The notes under the pieces: model-generated
Told to the model about the DNA's origin: nothing
The model's database searches: none
The model's input: the letters and a program-made list of their open reading frames with translations, nothing else
Source: Saccostrea echinata
Lineage: Eukaryota
Length of the DNA stretch: 64,000 nucleotides
Reading direction: 5' to 3'
NCBI RefSeq assembly: GCF_033153115.1
Contig: NW_026889778.1
Location: forward strand, 5,828,001 to 5,892,000
Shown here: one piece after another, positions 1-18,291 of the stretch
How positions within the stretch are numbered: position 1 is the stretch's first letter
Layout of the letters: each line of letters begins with the position of its first letter
Made by a program: the position numbers and the translations under genes

Positions 1-976
1 TTTCTTTCCCCCCAACACTGATTAATATTTGTATTGATGTAGTTTAATGTTGCAGAATAATCTGCCAATACCATGGAGATACATCACGCGGTGACAGATG
101 TACAAAACATACACAGACGGAATTCTCCGAGGTGGAAAATCAGGGGAGTGGGTCCCAGCATAAAACATGAGACTCAAAAACAAAACAGCTACGAATATAC
201 GTATCTTAACGATCAGGAAGTTACCAGAGTGATTCATTATCAACCAAATGGAAGGTAGAAAATTCTCATATATATATTATTCTACTTCCATCAGGCATAA
301 TTGATATAATATGCAGTAAAAGATTTGGTTATAAGGAAAAAGCATACCTAATAAACCTAAAGATTTCTCTTTGACAATTGTAATAAGAAAATGATAGTAA
401 GGAATACTTTTTAATAATCAAATTGCAACATTAGTCAGCAGAAATATGTGGAAAAGATTAAAAGTAAGTGCATGTCTGAAAGACAGACAGATCCAATGAC
501 TTTAAGGTATTAAGCTCTAGAAACATGAACACGCAGCAACTGATGCCGGTAATTAAGAAACATGAATCAGACTCCACGTTACTTTTTCATCAAATCTCAT
601 TCCCAACACTAAGACACATAAGACAATACACATACATTAATTTTTTGCATCACATCAAAATGAGGCTGGTGATGCACATACCCATTGCTTTACAAACAGA
701 AGGTCAAAACCCAGCAAGGGATTATATACTACCTTGTGGCTCTGGGCATAAAAAAAACTACAATGTACAGGGAAAAGAAAGGCACTCAGGGGAACAAAGA
801 GGAAAATAATATAAAGCTTTCTGATTATTTTCCAATTAGCTAAAAAGATCTCAATTTACTTGAATAACACTGAACACTGCTGTGAGGTAGGAAGACGCAC
901 AGGCTTGTTCTTGCTTAGGGCTCCATGTCAATATATCGCAGAACAGTATGTGCATTTCACCAAGCCATGCAAATAA

Positions 977-1358
977 GGACCCTCTATACACTAGAGGAAA
1001 ATATTTTTTGGACATTGAAAAAATTATAGTATGTAAAGGTATAAACATTGAGATTATCTATCACATTTTCAACATTGTGTGCCTTGCATTTACCCCCAGG
1101 AAAAATGTTCAAAGACAATGAAGTACTGATGAACAGAAATCACTGTTGTTTACTTAAGTGGACAAAATACCTGCAAATGAAATGTTCTATCTATTCCTCT
1201 TGGCCTATTGAAGTGTTACGAATGCTTAATTTAATAAAAATTAAGTAATAAACTGTACATTGCAGTTTATTTTCTTCTTGATCAAAGGGCAGATCACTCT
1301 TTCTGCATAAAAATACCACAAAATCAGAACTCTTTAGTGTGCAGTGTATAGAGGGCTC
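977..1358. mobile_element. Non-autonomous DNA transposon (Kolobok-like MITE)
   Basis: TIRs GGACCCTCTATACACT / AGTGTATAGAGGGCTC, flanked by ATAA and TTAA. A reverse-complement copy of the right ~95 bp occurs at ~33930-34022. Confidence 0.55.
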
Positions 1359-4300
1359 TTAAGACTCTAAACTGTAAAATTTCTTTTACTACAGAATTAT
1401 TGCCAGAGCTAGTAAACAGTTTAATGCTAATGGTGTGATATAAGCTAATTACAACTTTACAGAGTTAAGTCCCTCTATATTTCTGATATATATGATTCAG
1501 TGTTTCCCCTTTATTTCAAAGTAAAGGGTTGGAGATCAATTGTAACAGGCTACGGGTTGATCCAGGTTTATGAACAAAATCTCTGTGGACCTTACAAACT
1601 CTGTAAATTTTTTATTTCTAAGCAGCATTTTTATTAACTGAAATGGTCAATTTGGCCAAAATAACTGGTTCTTAGGGAAGATACTGATTTAATATTAAAG
1701 TTTTAGAAACCTAAAACATGTAAACTCAAGTCTGAGCAAAATTTGATTTGTAAAAATGCATCATTCATCTTCTGAAAACAAAGCAAACACCTGCATCTAC
1801 CAAGCAACATTCACTAATTTAGTCAAAGATAATGCTCAGCAGGAATAACTATCAACACCACTGACAATCATACTAATGAAGAAATTACTCCACCAAAGGA
1901 GCAGGTTGTAACCAGACTATTAGAGAGTTATACCCCTCCCCTTCCTAAAAATAAACCCTAGTAAAGGTGCTAGAGGAGTCCCAGAACCCCTGCATCATCC
2001 AGGAATCCGTACAAATCAACCCCATAGCTACAGTCCTATTTCTACCTAACATACATTATCTCTACATGTAAAATGTTGGTGTCATAATATAGGTTTTCCT
2101 TAAAGTAAATGCTTGTGTCATAAATAAATAAATGTTTTCCTCAGAGTAAATGTTCGGGGCAGGCACAGCAGAATGGCAGAGACCTTTGGTCAGGATCAAG
2201 CATGCTCTCCATTTCCCGTTACTTCTTGCAATATGTTAGAGTTTGGAAGACAATCTCTTCCGTCACAAATTACAAACAACAGTAGAGCACTGCAGCTAAA
2301 AATTAATTCTTTTTCCCAGAACAGATTATACAATCAAGTTAATGTACTGTCTCAGATAAATCCATGCATGAGGAAGAGATACATGTAGAAATAAATATAA
2401 TAAAAAAAGGTGTGCAAGTCAGTCAATATATACAAAGGTGTAACCTAGGTCAATATTTGTTTGCCAGTTAGTAAAATATACAGAGGTGTTTTATAATTCA
2501 TTATTTGTCATTTAGTCAACAATACAAATGTGTCAGCTCCTAAGTTGTTTGCCAGACAGTTCTTCATTTTATTTCTTGTTTAGTAGTATGCTTGTTAGTT
2601 TACATGTCAAACTGAGCATCTCAATTTTAAAATCACAATTTTTTGAAAAATAAAATGGGGGAAATCCCGAGATCTCCACTCCTGGTGTAGTTAAAGCGTA
2701 TGTGAATATTTGAATGTTGAAACAATCCAGATCTCCCTATTTGAGTTTGTGATTCTGTATAAGTGTCTGGTAACTATTTCTAAGCTGTACAAGCACTTAA
2801 CCCTGCTGATCGTTAGTGCCCGAATAAAACAACACTCATCAAATACTACCAACCTTTCCAAAGTTTGCAAACACATGTTTGATTCTGCCCTGTCAGCAGA
2901 CAGCCCTAAACAGAAAGATGAAACATCTTTCTCTTTGTCAGAAATGACACTATATTCTACATTTACCGGTATATAAACTGTATGTACTACATTATTCAAA
3001 ATTTGTATACATCTATTTTCAAAATTATGTGTAATCAAAATTTATCTGATAAAATGCAGAATTACAAAGACTCATTTAAATAGCGCACAAAAGAATGCAT
3101 CAAACGGGCCAATTACCCGGTAATATGGATCTCATGTTAAATAAGAACACAGAACGTAGAAAGTGTTTACCACTGAAACAGAATTTTTCAAGTACAGCAT
3201 ATTAGAATGTGAAATCTGAACCAAATTGCTACCATATTATGAACTGTGTATAGTCTATGTATTCAACTTCTCCTCATATCATACTCATTAAAATTAAGAT
3301 TATGCAGATAAAACAACATTCTATTTCTATATGTGCACCACTTTCCAATAGGCAATCAGTCTGCCAATTTATGAAGTCAATCCAACCTTCTTAGAATTCA
3401 GCAAAATCTTAAAAGATTGATGTCCATTTCCCAATTATTTCTATTTTTCTTTTTCCTCACTGAAACTTCATTAACATTGACGTTATGATATTTAAAATTT
3501 TGGGATAAAAAACTTTTTAAAATTGATATCTACATCATAAATACTCCACACTGTATGACACTGATAAGTCGAGGTTGACATTGCAATGTAACCCATCCAT
3601 CTATAGGTCATCTATCATGTACTATAAAATTAATGGTTACATCTTTAGGGAAGTTTATACTTAAATTATCCAATATCAGAATTCTTTTGTGAAATGAACA
3701 CCAAGGTGAAATGTAAGTCAAACATATGAGTGGCCTTCCATGAACTTTCAAAAATAAAAATCTTGTGTATCAGTCATTTGAAATTCCTCTTGTGTATCAG
3801 GCTCTGTAGTGTATTAAGTTTTCCTCTCTTGTGTATTGAATTTTCTTCCTTCTTGTCAAACTGTCAGTTTCCATCATAGATATCTACGATCATATTGTAC
3901 TTAAAAACTGACTGTGATTAGCTGTCAAAGATGAGCCATCAAATTTTAAGTCAATCTACAACACACTTGCTTCCTCCAATAATCAGAGGCTTGGTTTTAC
4001 AAAAGGTCTTCATTATATAAAATGGAAGTAATATATAATATATAATATATTGCACATTTTCTAGGAAGTGTTCTACTTCACCAGGAATTTGGGAAAGAAA
4101 ATAAAAATTAAAGGAAATTAAATGAACATAATTAAAATTTTGTTGATCAGTGTAAATCTGTAACAAAATCATTTATGTTAAGGTGCTACCCAGTTTAAAC
4201 CAAACCCTTAGTCTACCTAAAAAAGAAATACGATTTCATTACTTGAAACTTTATATGGTCATAAAACACACCCTATGTATTTAATAATAATAAAAAAAAT

Positions 4301-4928
4301 AAATACAGTACTTAGAAGATTTGAAACTTCCTTGTGTCAAGTACTATTGATCTGAGTATCAACTAAGTAGTTAAATCATGTTTATAGGAGAAATTACCAA
4401 TCACACTGAGACATCTCAATTACACAAGATCTATCTGATTTAAATTCAAAACACTAGTCTATGACGGGGAATTATTTTATATTAGAGCTTATTTATTAAT
4501 TGATGAATTATCTTAGACATGCATAACAATCCTTTCATTAATCATAGATTGATAACATATATTTCTTTTCTCTTTTTTTTCAAATTGGGGGGGGGGGGGG
4601 TCAGCATATTTCATGATAGACTAATCAGCGCTTCAAATGACAGACCAGAATACATCATATTACGACACTGATCGTCACGCCTGATTTGTCACATTCAACA
4701 ATGGGTAAATTAAGGTCACAATATTTATATAGGCTACAAGTGTTTATTTGCGGAAGTGATTTAAAAACCGCCAGCTGTCGACCCATCCGGTGAGTGCTCC
4801 TGACGGAAACTCCTGAAAGGCTACCGGACACCAGATAACGGAGAAGGACCCCCCAACAGGTCGACCCAGACTCGAGATAAATTGGCATTTATCCTGTTTG
4901 TCAACAATGCGTAAAATTCATAACTTAC

Positions 4929-4995
4929 CTCTAGCCTGATTTTCAAATTCCAAGAGAATTTCCTTTTCTTTCTTTGGTTTCTTTTCCGAAGACAT
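4929..4995 (-). CDS. SRGAP: First coding exon of SLIT-ROBO Rho GTPase-activating protein (srGAP, F-BAR N-terminus); rest of the gene presumably left of the window
   Basis: ATG at 4995; 67-nt exon MSSEKKPKKEKEILLEFENQAR+G ending at a phase-1 G|GTAAGT donor. It resembles the vertebrate srGAP N-termini as I recall them (MSSQTKFKKDKEIIAEYEAQIKE / MTSPAKFKKDKEIIAEYDTQVKE). No second exon was recognised in 1-4900. Confidence 0.8.
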
Positions 4996-5446
4996 TGTGT
5001 GAAACTCAAACAATATTCCCGAAAATACTAAAACCGCTGTTCACGAATCGGTCTGCATCTTCCTCTGTCTGTGTATTGCATATCGGATCTGCACATCTCG
5101 TAATCGAAGACGAGACATCACGAGATTTCACTAGCAAAGTACTAGACTGGTACCCTGACATTGGTTAACGGGCGCAAGCGCCCTGAAAAACCAATTCCTA
5201 GCGGCAGCGACTGGAATCAAGGGCAGAGAACCAGTGCTAGCAAAGTACTCGCTTAACTACAAGTTCCAAGTGACCAATCAGATATCGGATCAGGAAATTG
5301 TTTTTAATTTTAAGCCAATCATAGACATCGTGACAAGTGTAAATATAGAAACCACATGTAGCTGTCAGACGCCATTCAGATACCAAAGAGGGAGCATCGT
5401 TTTATAGTAGAGTATCCATATTTTGTGTAGAACTGAACCTACAAAA
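4996..5446. promoter_or_regulatory. Putative bidirectional promoter and 5' UTRs shared by srGAP and FAM72
   Basis: 451 bp between divergent ATGs; CpG-richer than the flanks. CCAAT/ATTGG boxes at 5160, 5191, 5274 and 5315; palindrome GGGCGCAAGCGCCC at 5170-5183. Confidence 0.65.
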
Positions 5447-8400
5447 ATGTCTGACAAGTCTCCTATACATCCTCAATTCCAGTCTAAAGAGGTTTTCTTT
5501 TTGGACTGCAAAATCTGTGAAAATACCGTCTGCCGCCGAGCAATGGAATCGGTTTTAGTGGCTGACTCGGATACAAGGTTATTTTCAACAGACTGTCCTG
5601 AGAAAAGGTTTGAATGATATTTTTCACACAGGAGTTAGAGTGGAGTTAGAGTGTTTAGCCAAAGATTGAAAAAGACCCTTTTTAATTACATCAGTAATTG
5701 TTGCTGAAAACTTGTCTAATTCAATTCATTAATATTCATTGATATATGATTAAATTCAAAACTTGGAGGAATCTCCTGCTATAAATGCGTATTTTTCATT
5801 TACTCTATTTGTTTACAGCTGTGTTGCCTTGACAGGTGAAAGGTTTGAGACAGACACCTGTAACTGTCAGCTGGAGAATGTGGCCTGCACTCAATGGTAA
5901 GGCTTGGAAATCCAACAGGTTTTACATCTCCCACCACTGGTGATTCCATGGCCAGGGTAATCTCAGAGAGATCCATAGAGAGTAAAAATTTTGGTTTGGT
6001 GTCTCTACGGATCTCAGACCAGTGTCATTTAATCTATTCAGGGTTTTGTGCCCGGACTTCGACCGCTTGTTTCGATTAATATGGACTGAAATGAATTAGC
6101 TGTCCACTTCAACTTTTTGCTTTGGACATCCTTTTAATTCCTTATCACCATAAAACTTTCGTTTCTTACTTCTGAAAGGTTTAAATCCATCAAAATGTAA
6201 AGTTGTTGATTTTTCATAGCAATAAACTATTAGTTTAAACCTCCGATGCCAAGAGTTCCAGCAATAGTCTGCTTCAAATACTTCGACCTACTACTATTTC
6301 CTATAGAAATGAACCATAGTACGAAGTATTTGAAGCAGACTATTGCTGGAACTCTTCAGCATCTGAGGTTTAAACGAATAGCTTATTGGTATGAAAAATC
6401 AACAACTTTATATTTTGATGGATTTAAACCTTTCTGAGGTAAGAAACGAAAGTTTTATGGTGATAGCAGGGCTCGACATTAACTTTTTTCCTACTTGTCC
6501 ATTCGAACAAGTGACCAAGACATTTACTTGTCCGAACTTCAACTTCACTTATCCGAAAATTTTTCAATAAAGATCTAAAACTGTCAAATTGAAAAATGAA
6601 AACTAAAATAAAGTCCATTACACATGACATGTGCTTGATTTATTCGTGATGTTATTGATAAATACAACAAACACATAAAACGAAATTTTATCTGACAACA
6701 AGTGAACCTGTCAACATCAAACAGAATCCAAACTTTGTAAAGTTCGTAAGTTCTATGCCTTTTCAGTAGTATGCAATTAGTGAACTTTGATCCCGATTGA
6801 ATGTGAATCGAAGTCCGGTTTTTATGTACAGCTTCTGTCTTGAAACTACCGATTAACTTTCAACAGTCGTTCTTTTTATTATTTAGAGACTCCTTTACAT
6901 TAAAATGCACTTGTCCAATCGGACAAGTGCCCAGCAATATTCACTTGTCCATAATTTTTTTTCACTGGTACCAGACATGTGGACAAGCGTTAATGTCAAG
7001 CCCTGGATAGGGAATTAAAAGGATGTCCAGAGCAAAAAGTTGAAGCAGACAGCTAATTCATTTCAGCCTGTATTAATCAAAACAAGCTGTCGAAGTCCGG
7101 GCACAAAACCCCGAATGAGATTATGTGACACTGGTCTGAGATCTGTAGAGACACCAGACCAAATTTTTTAGTCTCTACGGATCTCACAGAGATTACGGCC
7201 AGGGGTCTGCATTTTTTTCCCAGTTCATGATTCATTTTGTGTATATGATTGATTAATTTGGGGGGAGATTAAGCTTGTCTTGATATTTGGACTGATACAT
7301 TTGGTGAAAGAGTCAATCCAAATATTAAGCAAAGCGAAATCTCAGCTGAGTTTAAGCAATTATCAGATTTATCACATTATGTTATCTTCATTTTTTTCAA
7401 TTTTATGTTTTGTAAAATTGATAGTCTATTAGTAGACACTACGTAATCGGTAATATCGCTGTAGTCTCACTAAATCTCAGCAGAGGTACTACAAACTCTT
7501 CGGGTATTATAATTTGCAGAACACCGGAAAATAAAAGGTTCTGATCAGAACTCATTTGTGTGTGTGGGGGGGGGGGGGGGGGGGGGGGGTTGAGTATCAC
7601 CTGGACAAGTGCAGTGAAATACAGGAGCTTTGTTTGAGATTAAAACAAATATTTTTATTTTTGTTTACAGTGGCAATGTGGTTGGTTATAATGTGAGACT
7701 GCCCTGTAAAACCTGTTTACAGTCCTGTAATAATGGCCACCTGTGGATGTTTTACACAGACAAGATATCACCATATGAGAGATTTGAAAAGAAAGGTATG
7801 CTGGTCAGATAAACAAATAAACTACAATTTATTTCTGCAGTGCACATATAGCAGATTAAAATTTTCATATTTATATAACAGTGTTATTCTATAAATGCAC
7901 TATGCCAAAAAATAGTCAGGGTTTGACACATGTTTCACAAGTTGGAGGGGAGTACACTGTGTGTCAAACCCTGACTACTACTGTATAAGCACAAATTTTC
8001 GTGAGGATAAAATTTCGTTGATTTGTCCTCTAAAAAGGTTTCTTGGGCATTTAATTTCGTTGTTTCGAAAGTAACCCTATTCAATATATAGAGGATATTC
8101 AATGTTTTGTAGATGAATATGGAATTTATTTCACGAGTGGGACAGGATTTTTTGATATTTTCACGAGTGCGAAGCACGAGTGAAAATATCAAAAATCCTG
8201 TCTCACGAGTGAAATAAATTCCATATTCATCTACAAAACATTGAATTTTCTGTTTATTACATTTTCTTTGATTTTCCCTTTGCCTCTGTCTTTTCTTAAC
8301 ACAGTGTCATAGCTAGGCTTGACGTCATAGTTGAGCGGTTGAGAAGTCATAGCTTAGCAGTTGTGAGATTGAAAACATTACATAGCATGGATTTTAGCAA

Positions 8401-9779
8401 CATATTTGGGAAGAAAATTGCAGTTTTAGCTCTATCAAGATGTTTAGTTACTATCTTTATCTTATGATAGGGCAGAAATTATTTTTTACTTAATTTGATA
8501 TCCTTTCACACTGTGAGAGAATATCATTTTGGTATTCTTTCACACTGTAAGAGAATATCACTTTTATTCAATAAATAAATCACAGTATTTCACTGTTGAA
8601 AATGTAATAAATAGTCATATAAAAATTTCGAGTGGGATTTAATTTTGTTGATAACTGTTAGAAACGAAATAAAAGAAATTTAATCCCCAACGAATATCTC
8701 TGCTTTTACAGTATTTCAGCATAGTGTGTGATAAATTATCCCACATTTCCAACTATCGTTGATGTCTCAGGCCCACCCAACAAATTAAACAGTGATTTCT
8801 TATATTTATATGTGAAATAAAAGAGTAAATATAAATAAAAAATGCTGTTTGATAGTTTTAAAATACACGAGACATACCATGTTAATTTCCATAGTTCCTG
8901 CCCACTGATGTCCGACACAAAGACAGCTGTGAGAGATTGACATGCATATTAGGCACACTAGACCATTTACATTCAGTTGTAATTATCAAGAAATCAACAC
9001 ACCTAACTTTCTAAGAGTTATCAAGAAAATAGTTGGAAATGTAAATATTTAAAAATATATTCCTCAATGTAATGTGTTTGCTTACACTTTATAAAACCTT
9101 TATATACTTTGCAAAAATAATTGGGTATTGATTATATAGAGACAAACTGACAAGAAGCATAATAATTTGTATTCAAAGATAAAAATTATAAAGTTGCAGA
9201 GAAATTTTGGCGTATAATTTTCAGGATTTTTGTCCCAATGGAATTGGAATTCTCAAGTTGATGATCATCATCAAAAAAGAAAATTATAAATAAATAAAAA
9301 ATAAGAATTGTACTCACTGTGCTAATACTTAAAAAAAAATTAGTATCAGAAATACTTACCTACTTAGTCCTCTTTGTGCTGGTCAGCACATAAGGCCGTC
9401 AGCAGAGACGTCCATGCTGGTCCATCTCTGGACTTGTCCCCATGTCCAGATGTTCTCTTTCATTTCTTTTTCCACTGATCTTTTCCAGGTCTCTTTTGGT
9501 CTTCCTCTCTTTTCAGAAATAGCCCTCTAATATTTTACACATACAGCTACTAAGTTTTAGCTATGTATATAACTCTCCATATCAGATCTCTGTATTATGA
9601 AATTGCAAAAAATTGTAGAAATTAAAAAGTAAAATAAGTAAAATTTTAAGTGAATACTTCAAGCGAGATCACCCTGTTATGATACTATTGCAGGAGATGA
9701 AATTTTGCTGTGGGGGAACATTCCCAAAGCCTCCCATGACCACTCTCTCGATTTCCTCATCGATGAATGTCTTCGTTAG
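5447..9779 (+). CDS. FAM72: Protein FAM72 (149 aa), 4 exons: 5447-5607, 5819-5896, 7671-7795, 9694-9779
   Basis: All introns are GT-AG with compatible phases; exon total is 450 nt. Translation MSDKSPIHPQFQSKEVFFLDCKICENTVCRRAMESVLVADSDTRLFSTDCPEKSCVALTGERFETDTCNCQLENVACTQCGNVVGYNVRLPCKTCLQSCNNGHLWMFYTDKISPYERFEKKGDEILLWGNIPKASHDHSLDFLIDECLR has the FAM72 hallmarks LFSTD, CxxCGNxVGY, PCxxCLxSCNNGHxWMF, LLWGN and ECxR end. Confidence 0.95.
5957..7196. mobile_element. Palindromic (foldback) MITE in FAM72 intron 2
   Basis: Termini GTAATCTC/GAGATTAC; arms of ~330 bp are inverted copies; 7-bp TSD GGCCAGG (5950-5956, 7197-7203). The right arm is interrupted by a nested element. Confidence 0.8.
6467..7005. 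mobile_element. Nested hAT-like MITE with 5-bp TSD
   Basis: TIR CAGGGCTCGACATTAAC / GTTAATGTCAAGCCCTG; TSD GATAG (6462-6466, 7006-7010). The empty site can be read from the left arm of the host palindrome. Confidence 0.8.
7981..8711. mobile_element. Tc1/mariner-type MITE in FAM72 intron 3
   Basis: TA-flanked imperfect TIRs CTGTATAAGCACAAATTTTCGT / ACGAATATCTCTGCTTTTACAG; contains a nested hairpin element. Confidence 0.65.
8087..8612. mobile_element. Non-autonomous hairpin element with split inverted repeats (Crypton/DIRS-like architecture)
   Basis: ~75-bp-arm hairpin (8097-8247) with a GCGAAGC apex. It is followed by TTTATTACATTTT, complementary to the right end AAAATGTAATAAA (8599-8611). 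Confidence 0.6.
9354..9512 (-). mobile_element. 3' fragment of RTE-clade LINE
   Basis: Minus strand encodes KRGRPKETWKRSVEKEMKE, with a (TAAG)-like tail; flanking direct repeat TCAGAAATA. Confidence 0.6.
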
Positions 9780-10719
9780 ATCATTCAGCCACAATGTACA
9801 GAGAGACAACAATCCCAGCAGTTTGTGTGATACATTTATTTTGTAAACATTTTGTCCATTTTATGTTACTTTGGAAAAAAGTGCTCAAATTGTGCCATCC
9901 AACTGGAAATAATACTATGTTATGTACAGAATAGTTTTTGTCCATGTGTCAGACATTGTTAACTGTAACTAGGCATTTGTTTTTTTTTTCAAATTGTGCT
10001 GATAGACTTGTGCAATAGCCGAGATTAAATGTAATTTCTGTCTCGTTAAAATGTGTAAAATCAACTCGTTCATGTTGGTGTCTTGACACACTGACAAAGT
10101 TAATGAAGGGCTTTAATGTTGATGTAGATGACATCTGAATGATTTACAAAATCTGTGATATTATAAACATTCATTTCCTACTGGTAGAGGATTTATTGTG
10201 CTTTATTTGCTCACAGGAGGTGAGACTTTATTTACAGATGTATACAGTTGATATGATTCCATTGTAAGCTTGTTTTACAAGCAATAGTATCTACATTTCA
10301 TGTCAAATATTAATCACAATATTATTGTTCTGTTTTTGTTAAACAATCTGGTTCATTGAATTAAATTTATAAAAGGAAGCTAAAGGACTTTTTGTCATTT
10401 TTAGCGCTACTTGTCACAGACAACAATTAACAATTCTTCAGAAGTACATGTACTCGTCTTATAGTTTTTGAACCTGATCCAGAGTAGAAGACACTGTGAT
10501 ACATTATTTTGTGTGTATTAGTTATTTATTTCCATTATCGGTGCTGCCATGGTTACCAAAGGTAGAGTGATCAGTGGAATTCTTTTAAATGCCTTCTATG
10601 TTCACATTTCAACAAGTTGGCTATACCAAGACACAAAACTCTGTCATGATTTTTTTTTTTTCAATTCAGTGAACAGTGTTTCTATGTTCATAGCATGAAT
10701 TCCCCTTTCTTGTTTGTAG

Positions 10720-11053
10720 AGTAACAGGAAAGGAGAAAATGTATGGCTGGACCGGGAATCGAACCCGGGACCCGGGACTCACTAGTCGGGTGCTCTACCG
10801 ACTGAGCTACCCAGGCTGATATCCACGGCCCAAACCATTACATTCCTCCCTAATAAATTGTCTTCAAAACCCAAGTTCTTATTTGCCCCTGGGAGGACTT
10901 TCACCTGCAAGTCCAGGGATGGTCAATGGCACCAAATCTGTAACAGGAAAGGAGAAAATGTATTGCTGGACTGGGAATTGAACCTGGGACCCCTGCATCA
11001 GTGCTCTTCCGACTGAGCTACACAGTCCGATATCCATGACCCAATCCAATACA
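10720..11053 (-). mobile_element. Helenus-type TRIM (non-autonomous LTR element with tRNA-derived LTRs)
   Basis: Two ~115-125 bp LTRs with a tRNA-Thr(AGT)-like A/B-box core; PBS TGGTGCCATTGACC after the 5' LTR; PPT AGGGAGGAA before the 3' LTR; 4-bp TSD GTAG (10716-10719, 11054-11057). Confidence 0.75.
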
Positions 11054-11680: not shown

Positions 11681-12267
11681 ATATCTGAATGTGTGCACAT
11701 TACATAAATGGTTACAGTATCTTTGTTTGCTCCTTGAATTCTAAAATATCAAATAATTCATGCATGTTAAAATCACTGAAGAGGTTTTAGCCAAAGTCTT
11801 AAACGTTTTACATTTTCACCTCCAGAACTACTGGGCCAGTTTTAACTAAACTTGCCACAAAGCATCCGTGGGTGAAGGGGGTTCAAGTTTTTATCAAATG
11901 AAGGGTAAATGCTCTCTTTCAAGGGGAGATAATTAAGATTTTGTTACCTCCATAATTCATATTTCAAAAATCCTCTCAAGAATGGAGTCACGTGACTCAG
12001 AGGAGTAAAGACGTGTTTTTCTACCCTCTGTGTTCTTTTGACATTTTTCTGGAATTTCTGTGAAAATTTCAGTCACTCTTGGATTCTTCTCAAATATAGT
12101 GATATTTATTCTTAGGATATATGATACAGTGATATTTCAATGTTTTTGGATGTAGATATTTAGTGAATACTGTGAATGCTTTGTTAACACTGGGTGTGAG
12201 TATCTACTCACTCACTGTACGGAGATTTAATTCCTATTGTCATTGTGTGCTCTACAGTCAATAAAAA

Positions 12268-13479
12268 ATGGCAGATAAAAGATTACTTAAACCAGTCTAC
12301 CTACGAAATAGAGACATACAAACAAACAAAAAAGAACCGATTTCAGACTATGCTCTCGCCTGTGCTGTAAACACAGTGGCATCTGATATCACCTGCGTTC
12401 AAAGAGATCGAGATCTCTGGCGCATATATGTCGGGTCTACAGAGAGCCGAAATCTTCTAGTTTCAAACGGATTCACCCTCAACAATATAAGTATCTCCGT
12501 GTTTGATACTAACCCTTTCTCTGCGGGTACAGAGAAACCAGAGGAAGAGGTTGTAAGGGTCACGGTCAGGGGAGTTCCTCTTTCTGTGGAGGATTCGTGT
12601 GTAATCAACATGCTCGAAAAGCTTGGTGCTGAGCTCACGTCTGATATTAAATATGAAAAAATTCGCAACCCTACCACCCTTAAAATGACAGAAATATTAA
12701 ATGGAAACCGCTTTTTGTACATGAAACCAATGCCTAATGGCAAATTCCTACCAAAAAACAGTGAATGCGCCGGGTTGAGATGCACCATCTCACATCGGGG
12801 ACAACCAATAAAGAAGCAATCTTTGAGATGCACAAACTGTTGGGGCGAAGATCACCTTCGGTTCAACTGTGAGTATGAGACCTGTTGCAAAATCTGTAAA
12901 CAACCCGGTCACACTCCAGGAGACCCAAAATGCTCAAGTTATGATAATGGCGAGAAAGATATCATCGCTTTCAGTGGAAAGGAGGATATTCTTTCAAACT
13001 TTTATCCATGTAACATCAACATCTTTGGAATATCACATGACTCTGCCGAGCATGCCTTCCAGTATAGTAAGGCTATGCGATCTGGTGACGTTGTAAATGC
13101 CTCCGCAGTGCGCAACGCAACCTCCGCTTTAGAGGCTAAACGCATCGGAGCCAAGATTACTACATCCGATGATTGGCTGCTACAGCGTGACGATGTCATG
13201 AAGGAGATCCTGGAGGCCAAATTCGACCAAGTGCTCGAATTTAAAGAAAGCGTCTTCAAATCCAGTGAATCAGCTTTGTTTGTAGAAGCTGCCTTTGACG
13301 ATTACTGGGGATCGGGACTTGACAAACGTGGCACCACCAACTCTTCAGTCACTTCTTGGCCTGGTAAAAACGTTATGGGGCGAATTTTAACAAGCATCGC
13401 CAGATCAAAGCGAGAGCGTGCCATGCCCCAACGCAACCAGCCTTCACGTCGTGGCAAGGCAGGTAGTGTGTCAAGATAA
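12268..13479 (+). CDS. LINE ORF1p: RRM-like region, two CCHC zinc knuckles and a C-terminal NADAR (YbiA/DUF1768) domain
   Basis: 403 aa. Knuckles CTNCWGEDHLRFNC and CKICKQPGHTPGDPKC. aa ~232-379 carry LSNFYP, SAEHAFQ, AKRIG, W..RDDVM..ILEAKF.Q, FVEAAFDDYWGSG and GKNVMGRIL. Confidence 0.88.
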   Translation: MADKRLLKPVYLRNRDIQTNKKEPISDYALACAVNTVASDITCVQRDRDLWRIYVGSTESRNLLVSNGFTLNNISISVFDTNPFSAGTEKPEEEVVRVTVRGVPLSVEDSCVINMLEKLGAELTSDIKYEKIRNPTTLKMTEILNGNRFLYMKPMPNGKFLPKNSECAGLRCTISHRGQPIKKQSLRCTNCWGEDHLRFNCEYETCCKICKQPGHTPGDPKCSSYDNGEKDIIAFSGKEDILSNFYPCNINIFGISHDSAEHAFQYSKAMRSGDVVNASAVRNATSALEAKRIGAKITTSDDWLLQRDDVMKEILEAKFDQVLEFKESVFKSSESALFVEAAFDDYWGSGLDKRGTTNSSVTSWPGKNVMGRILTSIARSKRERAMPQRNQPSRRGKAGSVSR

Positions 13480-13539
13480 CTATATACATGTACTGAAGAA
13501 TTTCTTCACATTCAATCAGAAAGTTAATCAAACATTTGC

Positions 13540-16500
13540 ATGAACGTTTTAAATGTATATTCATTAAACTGTAGAGGTTTAAACTCTACAGAGAAAAGAA
13601 CTAAACTATATACCTGGTTATCTGACATAAATGCCGATGTAATATTATTACAGGAAACACATTTTATTGAAAAATATGAGGCATGCTATAATGCAACGCA
13701 GGGGTAATAAGGAAGCATACAAAATATTCTACCTTGACTTAATCAGTGCTACATTATGACGTCATAGTAGGCGAGATGACGTCAATTTTAGAATACAAGT
13801 TTTCGTATTTAGAGATGTAATTTAACTCTAGAAAATGAATAGAAACGTGTAAACATTAACAAAAATAAAATGTTTTTATTTTGTTATGCTGTATCTGTCA
13901 TTTTGATTAAAATCTACCACCGATGACGTCATATGTGTACTTCAAGTAACTTGGGAATTGATCATGTCGTGTAAAGAGAATTTGGCTAAGACGGCATGTA
14001 CAAAGATACGTAAAATGGAGTTTAAAAGCAAATATCCTGAATATTTTGTGAAATTCATATGGAGTTCAGTTACTTAAACAGGTATGCTAATTTATTTTCA
14101 TCGATTGTATTCTCTTCGAAGACAGTCAGCTATATACGTATCCCGGTCGGCCTTTCCTCTGTCATTTGTGACAAAAATAATGCAGCAGAACAACAATAAG
14201 CTGTATATTTCAAAACATAAGATTTGTACAGATGGAAAGTTTGCCTCCTAAAATACTTGGAAAGTGCTGCTAGAATCCCGAGTTAAGCATGGTTTTACGA
14301 AAAATCTCGGGTTATATGTATAAAATTCAAAACATCGGGTAAGGTTTCGTGCGAATGTGTGGAATTATCATTTTACTGACGGGACAGTGGGATTCTAGCA
14401 GCACTTTTTAGGCAAAATAGATGTTTTCCAACTATATTATTTACTCAAAGAAATTATTTCACTTCGGAGTATTGTTGTTCTGTTAGCTTTTTTACTAAGG
14501 AAAATTTCGCTATTAATAGAAGTCACGTGATGCCGTGGTGGTGGTGCACGCCTTTGCGTTAGACACTCTTTTATCTTTATGCAATAGATAATAATAGTTT
14601 ACATTTATCAGCGGTTTTGGTAAATTATCAAACGTAATTTTCTTTAAAAAGTCTAAATTTCCAGAGAATTGGCTTATATGCTTCCTTAACATACCCGCGA
14701 AGATGGTTTGGGATTAGTATCCATAATTTTTCTGACTCACAATATAGCAGAGGAACTTCGATATTATTTAGAAAAGGTTTAGATTTTGAAATATTAGATA
14801 TTCACAAGTCTTATGACGGAAGAATGATTTTTATTAATTTAATTTTGGAAGAAAAAAAGCTTACAATAATAAATATTTATGCACCAAACAATCAAGCGGA
14901 AAGAAAGTCCTTTTTCTTGAAAATTAATAAATGGATAACTAAATATTCTCACAATCCTGACAATATCATTTTAGCAGGAGATTTTAATTGTAATCTAGAG
15001 AAGACTGACGATTCCAGTATTAATTATTTTCAAAAAAATTTAAATAATAATAGTCTGATAGACTTGTGGCGAGACTTAAGGCCACAGGATGTAGGATATA
15101 CATGGTGCAACGGGGCAAACATACCCACAAGCAGAATCGACTACGTACTTATATCAAAATCCTTAATATATCCAGCTAAAAATATAATTCTCCGAGAAAT
15201 ACCAGGGTTACATTCAGGGGGAACAAGAATGTCAGATCACAAATGTATTAGGGTCATTTTTGACATTGATTTAAATATACGAGGTCCAGGATATTGGAAA
15301 TTTAATGTCTCACTTCTAGAAGATAATATTTTTGTCACGGAAATGAAAAAAATTATTAAAGATTTTAAATCAACTGAAAATATTCAAGCATCTTGGGAGG
15401 CACTTAAAATTAAAATTAAAGACTACTCTATAAAATACAGTAAAATTGTTAGTAAATCATGTAAACGTAAAATCATTTATTTAGAAAATGAAATATCTGA
15501 TATTGAAAAATCAAATTCAAACGATATTGATATGAATAAAAAAAGAAAATTAGAGTCCGAGCTAAAAGAATTGATAAATAAAAAAGCTAAAGGTGCCCAA
15601 ATTCGATCACGTGCGAAGTGGATAGACGAAGGAGAAACAAATTCGTCTTTCTTCCTTAAACTTGAATCATCTCATCAAAATAACAATACTATCAATCGTA
15701 TTAAAAATGACGATCATATAACTACGAATAGTTGTGACATCTTAGGAAAAATGTGTGATTTTTATATTAGATTATACAAATCATCAAATATTGATAATAA
15801 TGAGATCAAAACTTATTTAGATACAATTAACATAGCTCAGGTAGTTAATGATAAACAGAAAGTAGAATTAGATGAATTTCCAACAATGAAAGAATGTGAC
15901 GAAGCAGTTAAAATGTTAAAATCAAATAAATCGCCAGGCCTGGATGGGCTACCAGGCGAATTTTATCAAATTTTCTGGGATGAATTAAAACCTTATTTCT
16001 ACAATAATTTAATATACACCTTTAATAATAAATGTATGACATTCTCTCAACGTTTAGCTTTAATCACACTTATTCATAAAAAGGGAGATAAATCAGATTT
16101 AGCAAACTATCGCCCTATTAGTCTCACAAATACTGATTATAAGATATTAGCTATTATATTAGCTAACAGACTTCAGAAAGTAATAGACCTATTAATTAGT
16201 GAACATCAATCTGCATATATAAAGGGAAGATACATAGGAACAAATGCAAGAACAATTTTAGATATATTTGAATATTGTGAAAATAAAAACTACGATGGAA
16301 TTTTACTTTTCTTAGATTTCCAGAAAGCTTTTGATTCAGTCGAATGGAATTTTATTTTTGAAACCTTAAAACGTTTTAACTTTGGGGATAATTTTCTGCA
16401 ATGGATATCGATTTTGTACAAAGAACCAATTTTCAAACTAAAAAATAATGGATGGATTTCTAAAACGTGCAATATGGAAAGGGGCATACGACAAGGATGC

Positions 16501-18291
16501 CCTATTTCTTCGATGATATTCCTTTTCGTTGCAGAAATCTTATCAATAAAAATAATGTCTGATGAAAACATTATTGGATTTAAAACTCCTAAGATGTCAA
16601 CAGACATAAAAATGATACAACACGCTGATGATGCTACATTAGCACTCCGTGATAAAAAATCTTTAAAACAAGCAGTAACATGTATAAAGAACTTTGGAAA
16701 TATATCTGGATTGACTCTCAATATTAGCAAAACGGAATGCATGTTACTAGGCAATTTGAAGAATACAGCACATAATTTATATGGAGTAAAGGTCAACAAA
16801 GAAAGTATTAAAGTGTTAGGAATTCATATTGGTTATGACATAGAGAAATGTATTGAAAAAAATTGGGGAAACAAAATTAAAGAGCTTGAGAGACTTTTCG
16901 AATCATGGAAAAAAAGAAAATTAACTATATTCGGGAAAACCTGCATTATTAACAATCTTGCTGTATCCAAATTAATATACAACCTCTCACTCTTACCATA
17001 TCCTAGTGCTAATATCATAAAAAATATCAATAAAATTATCTTCAATTTTATTTGGAATAAGAGAGACAGAATAAAACGAAGAACCTTAATAGGGGATATA
17101 CAGCAGGGTGGTATAGGAGTTGTGGATATAGAGTCTAAAGCGAAAGCAATTAAATGTTCATGGATTTCCAAAATAATATCAGATGAAAAAAGCAACATTA
17201 AAATCTTTTTAGAAAATTTCAATTTAAGAAAGCAAGATATTATCTACATGTTACACACTAATAACTTAGCAATACATGATCACAATATACTTAAGCATCT
17301 TCCGATATTTTATAGAGAAATTTTTGAAGCATTTAGTGAAACTAAGAGCCCAATGGAAATAAGTAAAATGACTACATTTGACTTTCTGAGACAATCTATA
17401 TGGGGAAACAAAATTTTTAACTACAAAAATAAGGTATTATTTTTTGAAAACTGGTATGATGCTGGAATCTTATATGTAAAAGATATTGTGGATGAAAATG
17501 GTATCAAGCCACTCGAATACTTTTTAAACATGCTTGTTAAAAAAAATAACATATTTTGTGAGTACTTGATATTGAAAAATGTGTTTCAGAAATATAAGAA
17601 TCAGTTTGATTTCAGCTTATCAAAATATACAAATATCAGAAATACTTTTCATTTTGTTTTAAATGATAATCAATGTCACTGTATCAAAGACAAAAAATGC
17701 AAGTTCTATTATGATATCTTTAAAAATAAAAAATTTGTAAAGCCATGCTATATTAACAAGTTTAGAAAAGAATTTATTATCCAGAATCAATGTTTTTCCA
17801 AAATATATTTTTCCAAAATTGTCAAAGTCTTTGACAAAAAAATCGCAGATTTTAACTATAGAATACTTAATAATCTGCTTAATAATAGAAGTTATTTAAG
17901 CAAATGGAATGACATATCTAATCTGTGTCCATACTGTAAAGAATGTGTTGAAACAAACAAACACTTATTATACGAATGCCAAAATGTTCAAAGAATATGG
18001 AATGTTGTTAGTGAAATTTTAAAATTTAATGTATCATGGAAACTTATAGTAGTAGGATTCTATAATGAAGTCAACGAAAAAACAATTTTATTTACCAATC
18101 TTATATCATTTGTAGCCCTTAGAATCTATAAATACAAAATGCTATGTAGACTGGAAGAAATAGCTGAAACGCCAAAAGCAATTCTTTGTCATGTTAAAAA
18201 ATCCTTAAACACGTTTTATTATGCTCTTAAAAGATCAAAATACAAGAACTGGAAAATAAATATATTTAAAAAGGTCGAGGAAAGTCTGTGA
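13540..18291 (+). CDS. LINE ORF2p (APE endonuclease, reverse transcriptase, C-terminal CCHC finger), interrupted by a ~1 kb insertion; ~1248 aa if the insertion is removed
   Basis: 13540-13695 gives MNVLNVYSLNCRGLN...LLQETH (APE start). The same frame resumes at 14701 (RWFG...SRGTSILF) and runs into the 14824-18291 ORF with GDFN, SRIDY, SDH, KSPGLDG, NYRPISL, LDFQKAFD, RQGCPIS, HADD and CPYC..ET..HLL.EC. Confidence 0.93.
13697..14699. mobile_element. Non-autonomous DNA transposon inserted in LINE ORF2
   Basis: Imperfect TIRs CGCAGGGGTAATAAGGAAGCATA / TATGCTTCCTTAACATACCCGCG; apparent 2-bp TSD AA. Removal restores AAT GCA AGA TGG (N-A-R-W). No ORF. Confidence 0.8.

What the first reader, a model, noticed from the sequence alone, without database searches (positions are those of the whole stretch)
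4929..9779. srGAP and FAM72 head-to-head in an apparent mollusc
Seen: an srGAP-like first exon on the minus strand and a complete FAM72 on the plus strand, ATGs 451 bp apart, with several CCAAT boxes between them. FAM72 keeps the LLWGN tryptophan motif. Established: vertebrate SRGAP2 and FAM72 form a divergent pair sharing an intergenic promoter, and mammalian FAM72A binds and promotes degradation of UNG2 during antibody diversification. Inference: the linkage may predate the protostome-deuterostome split, and FAM72 has an ancestral role independent of immunoglobulin genes.
Basis: partly seen in the sequence, partly recalled or inferred. Interest (0 to 1): 0.7.

Follow-up and report, generated by a model that had tools for sequence, protein, structure and literature searches.

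The report
Ancient head-to-head srGAP-FAM72 gene pair
In this oyster the genes srGAP and FAM72 sit back to back across a short, likely shared promoter, as in humans, so a pairing once described as vertebrate-only is likely as old as bilaterally symmetric animals, although the oyster FAM72 probably tags other proteins than the DNA-repair enzyme it destroys in mammals.

Summary
Real. The window (Saccostrea echinata by the source's label) holds a spliced four-exon FAM72 and, 451 bp away on the other strand, the 67-nt first exon of the genome's only detected srGAP; its F-BAR, RhoGAP and SH3 exons lie 24-48 kb left. A review says non-vertebrates lack this pair. Accession and scaffold evidence puts the genes side by side in two more oysters, two scallops and probably a limpet. 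Two non-mollusc animal contigs show the same head-to-head 67-nt exon. The link looks broken in mussels and one other animal group. Two corrections: two of the four CCAAT boxes belong to a 97-bp transposon missing from some alleles, and the predicted oyster UNG start lacks the Met-[Ile/Leu/Val]-Gly tag that FAM72A needs, while the binding pocket and muskelin are kept. Ancient head-to-head pairs number in the hundreds, so this is a new member of a known kind. The scan had not noted this pair; it noted a fungal FAM72 whose UNG also lacks the tag.

The parts
1..4928 (-). Part of srGAP intron 1 (23.6 kb in all; exon 2 lies outside the window at G000:C29:5809179-5809364)
4929..4995 (-). srGAP first coding exon, 67 nt, phase 1, GT donor
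   Evidence: joined to exon 2 in a run X4 contig; 20 of 22 residues equal to the N-terminus of C. gigas srGAP P0182
4996..5446 (.). Gap between the two ATGs: both 5' UTRs and the likely shared two-way promoter
   Evidence: contigs reach into it from both sides; start sites not mapped
5143..5239 (.). 97-bp non-autonomous DNA transposon (MITE-like) with imperfect inverted ends; holds the pentamers at 5160 and 5191; missing from some alleles
   Evidence: 42 other matches in the genome at 88-100% identity; skipped in runs X3 and X4
5134..5142 (+). Left 9-bp target-site duplication of the transposon
5240..5248 (+). Right 9-bp target-site duplication of the transposon
5272..5280 (+). Full NF-Y-type CCAAT box outside the transposon
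   Evidence: binding not tested
5313..5321 (+). Second full NF-Y-type CCAAT box outside the transposon
   Evidence: binding not tested
5447..5607 (+). FAM72 coding exon 1
5819..5896 (+). FAM72 coding exon 2
7671..7795 (+). FAM72 coding exon 3
9694..9779 (+). FAM72 coding exon 4 with Trp128 (human W125), C-terminal Arg149 and stop
9780..10258 (+). Probable FAM72 3' UTR (end not mapped)
   Evidence: contigs continue to 10239-10258 in X1, X2 and X4

Best explanation
The oyster's only detected srGAP and FAM72 genes are head to head across 451 bp, and this likely is an inherited bilaterian gene pair held together by a shared two-way promoter. Shown: both gene structures, the FAM72 splices, the exon 1 to exon 2 splice of srGAP (one contig), the transposon insertion. 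Inferred: the two NF-Y-type boxes at 5272 and 5313 mark a core promoter firing both ways, so a break in the gap would cripple both starts; this slows separation but does not forbid it, because srGAP has two more first exons further in. Inferred for the protein: oyster FAM72 works as in mammals, as a zinc-bound Yippee-fold adaptor that grips an acetylated N-terminus and docks on muskelin in the CTLH ubiquitin ligase through its zinc knuckle and C-terminal Arg, but on other substrates than UNG. The transposon is a recent passenger.
For: srGAP identity: FCH, RhoGAP and SH3 exons in order on the minus strand; one match for exon 2 in the genome, one locus for FAM72. Neighbours elsewhere, by accession order plus equal contig length: Argopecten srGAP XP_069141661-666, FAM72 XP_069141667; Pecten XP_033746259 and ...261; Ostrea XP_048740893-896 and ...912; by accession order only: C. 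gigas XP_011416126 onward and ...117. Lottia models 141691 and 141696 lie on contigs of the same 398,026-bp length. L112 and L084 carry a 67-nt phase-1 exon on the opposite strand, 1089 and 789 bp from the FAM72 ATG, scoring 34.9 and 23.1 against a best chance score of 11.0 among 700 other candidates; an AU test rejects placing both inside molluscs, p 0.006. L084 also has two CCAAT boxes 31 bp apart. Vertebrate side from PMC7957592 and PMC12672016. Protein: 21 of 24 pocket, zinc and Trp positions equal the lizard protein; C-terminal Arg in 149 of 176 homologues; model matches Mis18, YPEL5 and cereblon; muskelin is in the genome.
Against: Mytilus: same chromosome lengths but accessions thousands apart in four species, and different scaffolds in M. 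coruscus. No srGAP exon in 10 kb upstream of FAM72 in L098 and L120, in 1.4 kb in L079, in up to 1.2 kb in the L128-like loci, or in 39 kb upstream in G001. Tachypleus copies seen lie on different chromosomes. L112 and L084 hold only the 22-residue exon, not the srGAP body, and their phylum is unknown; the AU groups were named after a first tree was seen. Accession order is a proxy and gives no orientation. No promoter assay, no start-site data, no binding data. The exon 1 to exon 2 bridge is 28 letters in 1 of 4 runs, under the tool's 31-letter bar.
Confidence: 0.78

Rival explanations
1. The pair is ancient but only a leftover: slow-rearranging genomes keep neighbours with a tiny gap, and each gene has its own promoter.
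For: Apparent loss in Mytilus and in the L098/L120 group; Lottia and amphioxus keep 448-492 ancient pairs (PMC3514665); no cell-cycle CHR or E2F match in the oyster gap outside the transposon (motifs recalled); a transposon is tolerated in the gap.
Against: Gap stays 0.3-1.1 kb in three distant animals and about 4 kb in vertebrates; paired CCAAT boxes in oyster and L084.
Confidence: 0.3
2. Oyster FAM72 degrades oyster UNG as in mammals, with a pocket that has shifted to fit its different N-terminus.
For: Oyster UNG keeps Gly3-Gln4 and a PCNA-box-like motif after its second Met; small residues at position 2 still bound in vitro; the position-2 cavity differs in oysters (Ala32 to Ser; Ser in 9 of 176).
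Against: In cells, Ala or Thr at position 2 abolished binding because the Met is removed; Ser is likewise small (general knowledge). 0 of 4 tested substrate families (UNG, two genes; IST1; QKI; HPF1) have the tag at their predicted oyster starts.
Confidence: 0.15
3. The mollusc and vertebrate pairs arose independently.
For: Patchy presence; no invertebrate deuterostome was positively identified here.
Against: Same two genes and same orientation in vertebrates, oyster and two further non-mollusc contigs, with the same first-exon length and phase in the three invertebrates.
Confidence: 0.03

Closest known systems
Vertebrate SRGAP2-FAM72 divergent pair (PMC7957592; PMC12672016)
   Same: Same two gene families, head to head; FAM72 with four exons and 149 aa.
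   Different: Gap 451 bp ATG to ATG against a 4-kb intergenic region; partner is the single pre-duplication srGAP; no canonical CHR or E2F match; a polymorphic transposon sits in the gap. The review states that other species show no such pair.
Conserved ancestral microsyntenic pairs of metazoans (Irimia 2012, PMC3514665), e.g. HSPE1-HSPD1
   Same: Unrelated genes, 5'-5' orientation, short gap, kept in slow-evolving lineages.
   Different: This pair is not named in the main text (supplements could not be read); seen here only in apparent bilaterians.
Mammalian FAM72A, adaptor of CTLH-MKLN1 for the AcMet-[Ile/Leu/Val]-Gly degron (PMC11364545; PMC13676621; 10.64898/2026.09.19.752822)
   Same: Zinc ligands, pocket, W125 equivalent, C-terminal Arg, Yippee fold; muskelin present.
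   Different: Three pocket changes (A32S, L35V, F101L in human numbering); predicted oyster UNG, IST1, QKI and HPF1 starts lack the degron.
Miniature inverted-repeat elements of Mutator-like type (assignment recalled from the 9-10 bp duplication)
   Same: About 100 bp, no coding capacity, inverted ends, 9-10 bp target duplication, many copies.
   Different: Inverted ends imperfect; no parent transposase was looked for.

Membership tests
FAM72 (PF14976) | Profile match above cut-off | tested here: met
   Exons 1 and 3: 46.1 and 60.0 bits, cut-off 27
FAM72 (PF14976) | Zinc ligands and Yippee/CULT fold | tested here: met
   All six Cys ligands named in the bioRxiv structure plus C96 kept; model pLDDT 81, best matches Mis18 and YPEL5 at E under 0.001
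CTLH-MKLN1 degron adaptor | Acetyl-Met pocket residues (Y83, N97, N98, F8 and others) | tested here: met
   21 of 24 positions equal to lizard FAM72A, whose letters match the human numbering in the paper
CTLH-MKLN1 degron adaptor | C-terminal Arg and a muskelin gene | tested here: met
   Arg149; Muskelin_N exons on C29
CTLH-MKLN1 degron adaptor | Binding to muskelin and ubiquitylation of a substrate | not testable with these tools
   No full oyster muskelin protein was on hand; acetylated peptides cannot be modelled
FAM72A-UNG2 axis | UNG starting Met-[Ile/Leu/Val]-Gly | tested here: not met
   Predicted starts: Met-Ser-Gly behind a targeting-like leader (C47 gene), Met-Pro-Gly (C28 gene); genomic prediction only
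srGAP | F-BAR, RhoGAP, SH3 in order in one gene | tested here: met
   closest proteins are labelled srGAP
srGAP | 67-nt exon spliced to the F-BAR exon | tested here: met
   X4 contig, 28 letters beyond the joint; same N-terminus in C. gigas P0182
Bidirectional promoter pair | Head-to-head, under 1 kb apart | tested here: met
Bidirectional promoter pair | Divergent start sites driven by shared elements; co-expression | not testable with these tools
   Only unstranded contigs were available
Ancient conserved microsyntenic pair | Adjacent in several distant lineages | tested here: met
   Vertebrates (papers), bivalves, probably limpet, two non-mollusc contigs; exceptions exist
Ancient conserved microsyntenic pair | Present in non-bilaterians | tested here: inconclusive
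   L128-like loci have at most 1.2 kb upstream and no exon; G001 negative, host group unknown
G2/M DREAM-type promoter | CHR or E2F element near the start | tested here: not met
   No canonical match in 4996-5446; one variant hexamer inside the transposon; motifs recalled
MITE | Dispersed short copies with inverted ends, target duplication and an empty allele | tested here: met
   9-10 bp duplication in 17 of 19 copies examined; empty form in 2 of 4 runs

The most novel reading that the evidence does not exclude
The srGAP-FAM72 unit that was duplicated in human brain evolution is an Urbilaterian two-way promoter module, co-regulating a Slit-Robo cytoskeletal GAP with the receptor of an ancient acetyl-N-terminus degradation pathway whose original substrates are unknown; UNG became a target only later, by gaining the tag, and an oyster transposon polymorphism gives a natural test of the promoter.
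Probability: 0.4. Interest if true: 0.7.

Novelty: new member of a known kind. Interest (0 to 1): 0.5.

Why it matters
It overturns a printed statement that the SRGAP2-FAM72 pair is confined to vertebrates and moves its origin back to the bilaterian ancestor, so the 'neural master gene' reading needs a more general explanation. It also separates the conserved machine (FAM72 pocket, muskelin docking) from the mammalian substrate list, which makes the ancestral job of the acetyl-N-degron pathway a testable question. The compact promoter with and without the transposon is a ready reporter system.

Tried and rejected
Run search listed no holder on record as RNA; 4 of 6 listed runs were laid, all contigs, so start sites, strand and levels could not be read and depths were not used. 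X1 laid nothing on the exon 2 stretch, which proves nothing. Contigs in X3 and X4 cross the whole gap; this does not show a single transcript. The 107-nt skip was considered as an intron and rejected: ends AA..CA, and it removes the element, one duplication and one more base. No FAM72 chain in the PDB sequence copy with exon 3 as query. An exon-1-only alignment was too variable for a collection scan. An SH3 hit upstream of FAM72 in G001 was followed and rejected as srGAP: no F-BAR or RhoGAP match. The first UDG-family hit looks by eye like SMUG1, not UNG. The phylum of L084 and L112 could not be fixed; the Atlas gave only family clusters. No complex was predicted. Supplements of PMC3514665 could not be read and may list this pair; those of PMC7530604 name FAM72C/D and SRGAP2/3 only in unrelated tables in the rows shown. 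The eight word-search notes and the sequence look-up had no bearing.
Full report
Observation. The coordinates hold. The minus-strand exon at 4995-4929 is 67 nt with a GT donor; four plus-strand exons give a 149-residue protein with LLWGN; the ATGs are 451 bp apart. Three of the four exons hit PF14976, the FAM72 family. The protein is in the collection letter for letter as 'FAM72B-like [Saccostrea echinata]' on a contig of the same length as C29. All three introns are joined in 4 of 4 laid runs (three samples, two studies; RNA by the tool's guess). FAM72 has one locus in the genome.

The left gene is srGAP. An FCH exon lies 23.6 kb to the left on the same strand, then RhoGAP and SH3 exons; C. 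gigas srGAP maps exon by exon over C29:5832995-5784922. A contig of run X4 runs from exon 2 into 28 letters equal to window 4930-4957; this is 1 of 4 runs and under the tool's 31-letter bar, but C. gigas srGAP begins with the same exon (20 of 22 residues). Exon 2 has one match in the genome. Two other first exons exist inside intron 1: near C29:5820.4 kb, spliced to exon 2 in X2 and X3, and near 5811.0 kb by likeness to an Ostrea isoform. So srGAP can also be made away from FAM72.

The gap. Its middle, 5143-5239, matches 42 other places at 88-100% identity (only 40 of 155 candidates scored, so a lower bound). It has imperfect inverted ends and a 9-bp duplication. I examined 18 loci chosen from the top matches, holding 19 copies: 17 have an exact 9-10 bp duplication, 2 do not, and two of the 17 share flanks and may be one site assembled twice. 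Contigs in X3 and X4 skip 5136-5242, an X1 contig enters the element, X2 stops short. It is a recent transposon missing from some alleles; without it the gap is about 344 bp. The two outside it fit the full NF-Y consensus, P about 0.0015. No canonical CHR or E2F site is present, unlike the human region described in PMC7957592. These consensus motifs are recalled.

Age of the pair. No other animal genome could be read whole, so I used two proxies. First, accession order and contig length. Argopecten: six srGAP isoforms are followed directly by FAM72. Pecten, Ostrea and C. gigas: numbers within 2 to 16. Lottia: models 141691 and 141696 on contigs of equal 398-kb length. Against: four Mytilus species have both genes on contigs of matching or unstated length with accessions thousands apart, M. 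coruscus has them on different scaffolds, and the Tachypleus copies seen are on different chromosomes. Second, host DNA in metagenomes: 94 FAM72 stretches, 80 kept. All 80 were scanned with an exon-1 profile built from ten srGAPs, and 37 of the 80 with a splice-anchored score; many of the others are transcript-like or have little upstream DNA, and many loci are near copies. Two hit: L112 and L084, each with ATG, 22 codons plus one base and GT on the opposite strand, 1089 and 789 bp from FAM72, scoring 34.9 and 23.1 where the best of 700 chance candidates scored 11.0. Their srGAP bodies are off the contigs. In FAM72 trees they group with other unnamed sequences away from molluscs; forcing them into molluscs is rejected (p 0.006) while molluscs alone are not (p 0.40), with groups named after the first tree. 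L098 and L120, from the same branch, have no such exon in 10 kb; L079 none in 1.4 kb; the L128-like group none in up to 1.2 kb; G001 none in 39 kb. With the vertebrate pair from the literature, one origin in the bilaterian ancestor and several losses is the simplest history.

What FAM72 does. FAM72A grips AcMet-[Ile/Leu/Val]-Gly termini and docks on muskelin by its zinc knuckle and C-terminal Arg (10.64898/2026.09.19.752822, abstract and sections 6, 8, 11 read; PMC13676621, passages and section 10; PMC11364545, passages). Using lizard FAM72A for numbering, the oyster keeps 21 of 24 named positions; Tyr83, Asn98 and the second zinc site are nearly invariant in 176 homologues (10 fragments or mis-spliced rows dropped from 186), and 149 of 176 end in Arg. 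Named homologues include a chytrid, a mucoralean fungus, an ichthyosporean, a choanoflagellate, a sponge and a ctenophore, so independence from antibody genes is plain. The model matches Mis18, YPEL5 and cereblon, and muskelin is encoded on C29. But the UNG gene on C47 has a leader followed by Met-Ser-Gly-Gln and a PCNA-box-like motif, the UNG-like gene on C28 starts Met-Pro-Gly, and IST1, QKI and HPF1 also lack the tag: 0 of 4 families, predicted starts only; HEBP1 and CKAP2L were not checked. Small residues at position 2 fail in cells because the Met is removed. An earlier scan note on a fungal FAM72 (e1-9827360, seen after these tests) says the same of its UNG; it is not independent proof.

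What is known. PMC7957592 (passages, section 12 part 1, Figure 1 legend) states that species other than vertebrates show no such pair. PMC12672016 (passages) treats it as single-copy in other vertebrates; PMC6579814 (passage) lists srgap2 beside fam72a in a fish. PMC11377751 (passages) names the Yippee fold and does not mention SRGAP. Searches for FAM72 with invertebrate, with SRGAP and synteny, with phylogenetic and fungi, with amphioxus, with head-to-head, and with mollus- (listings, most hits not opened) showed no report of an invertebrate pair; subscription papers and theses are not covered, and the supplements of PMC3514665 (passages only) may list it. That paper shows that Lottia keeps over 400 such ancient pairs and that head-to-head pairs are enriched among them.

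Verdict. A real and probably unreported ancient pair that corrects a printed claim, within a well-known class. Interest 0.5.

Noticed in passing
G000:C29:5820381-5820480 and 5810988-5811074 (L003, L004), minus strand: Two alternative srGAP first exons inside intron 1; similar N-termini occur in scallop, octopus, limpet, chiton and other mollusc isoforms, so three promoters look conserved across molluscs.
   Followed up: partly
window 5143-5239 and L002, L033-L049: A young family of 91-104 bp transposons with 9-10 bp target duplications; every one of 19 copies carries one or two CCAAT pentamers, so it could seed promoter motifs genome-wide.
   Followed up: partly
FAM72 residues 35 and 38 (window exon 1): Oyster has Ser and Val where 165 and 163 of 176 homologues have Ala and Leu in the substrate pocket; Pinctada shares the Ser. 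Specificity may have shifted.
   Followed up: no
G000:C47:2.352-2.365 Mb and C28:7.584-7.589 Mb: Two UNG-family genes; the C47 gene has an upstream in-frame Met giving a targeting-like leader before the PCNA-box-like start, suggesting two forms from one first exon.
   Followed up: partly
window about 12265-18290, + strand: Open frames of 404 and 1217 codons that look by eye like ORF1 and ORF2 of a nearly intact LINE.
   Followed up: no
window about 21660, 27020, 44370, 48340 (+) and 61770 (-): Cluster of 420-577 codon frames that look by eye like B-box/TRIM-type genes right downstream of FAM72.
   Followed up: no
window about 10740-11000: tRNA-like repeats that look like SINE copies just past the FAM72 3' end.
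   Followed up: no
L135, G001:C4 (622 kb): A contig filed in a gammaproteobacterial genome bin carries an intron-containing FAM72 and other eukaryote-type genes, so it is probably host DNA in the bin.
   Followed up: partly
L112:11900-14200, minus strand: Exons that look by eye like IMP4 lie tail to tail with FAM72 in this contig; not seen in the oyster window's long frames.
   Followed up: no
window 5370, L084:4472, L112:8340: A YY1-like core (motif recalled) lies in the gap of all three head-to-head loci; no chance test made.
   Followed up: no
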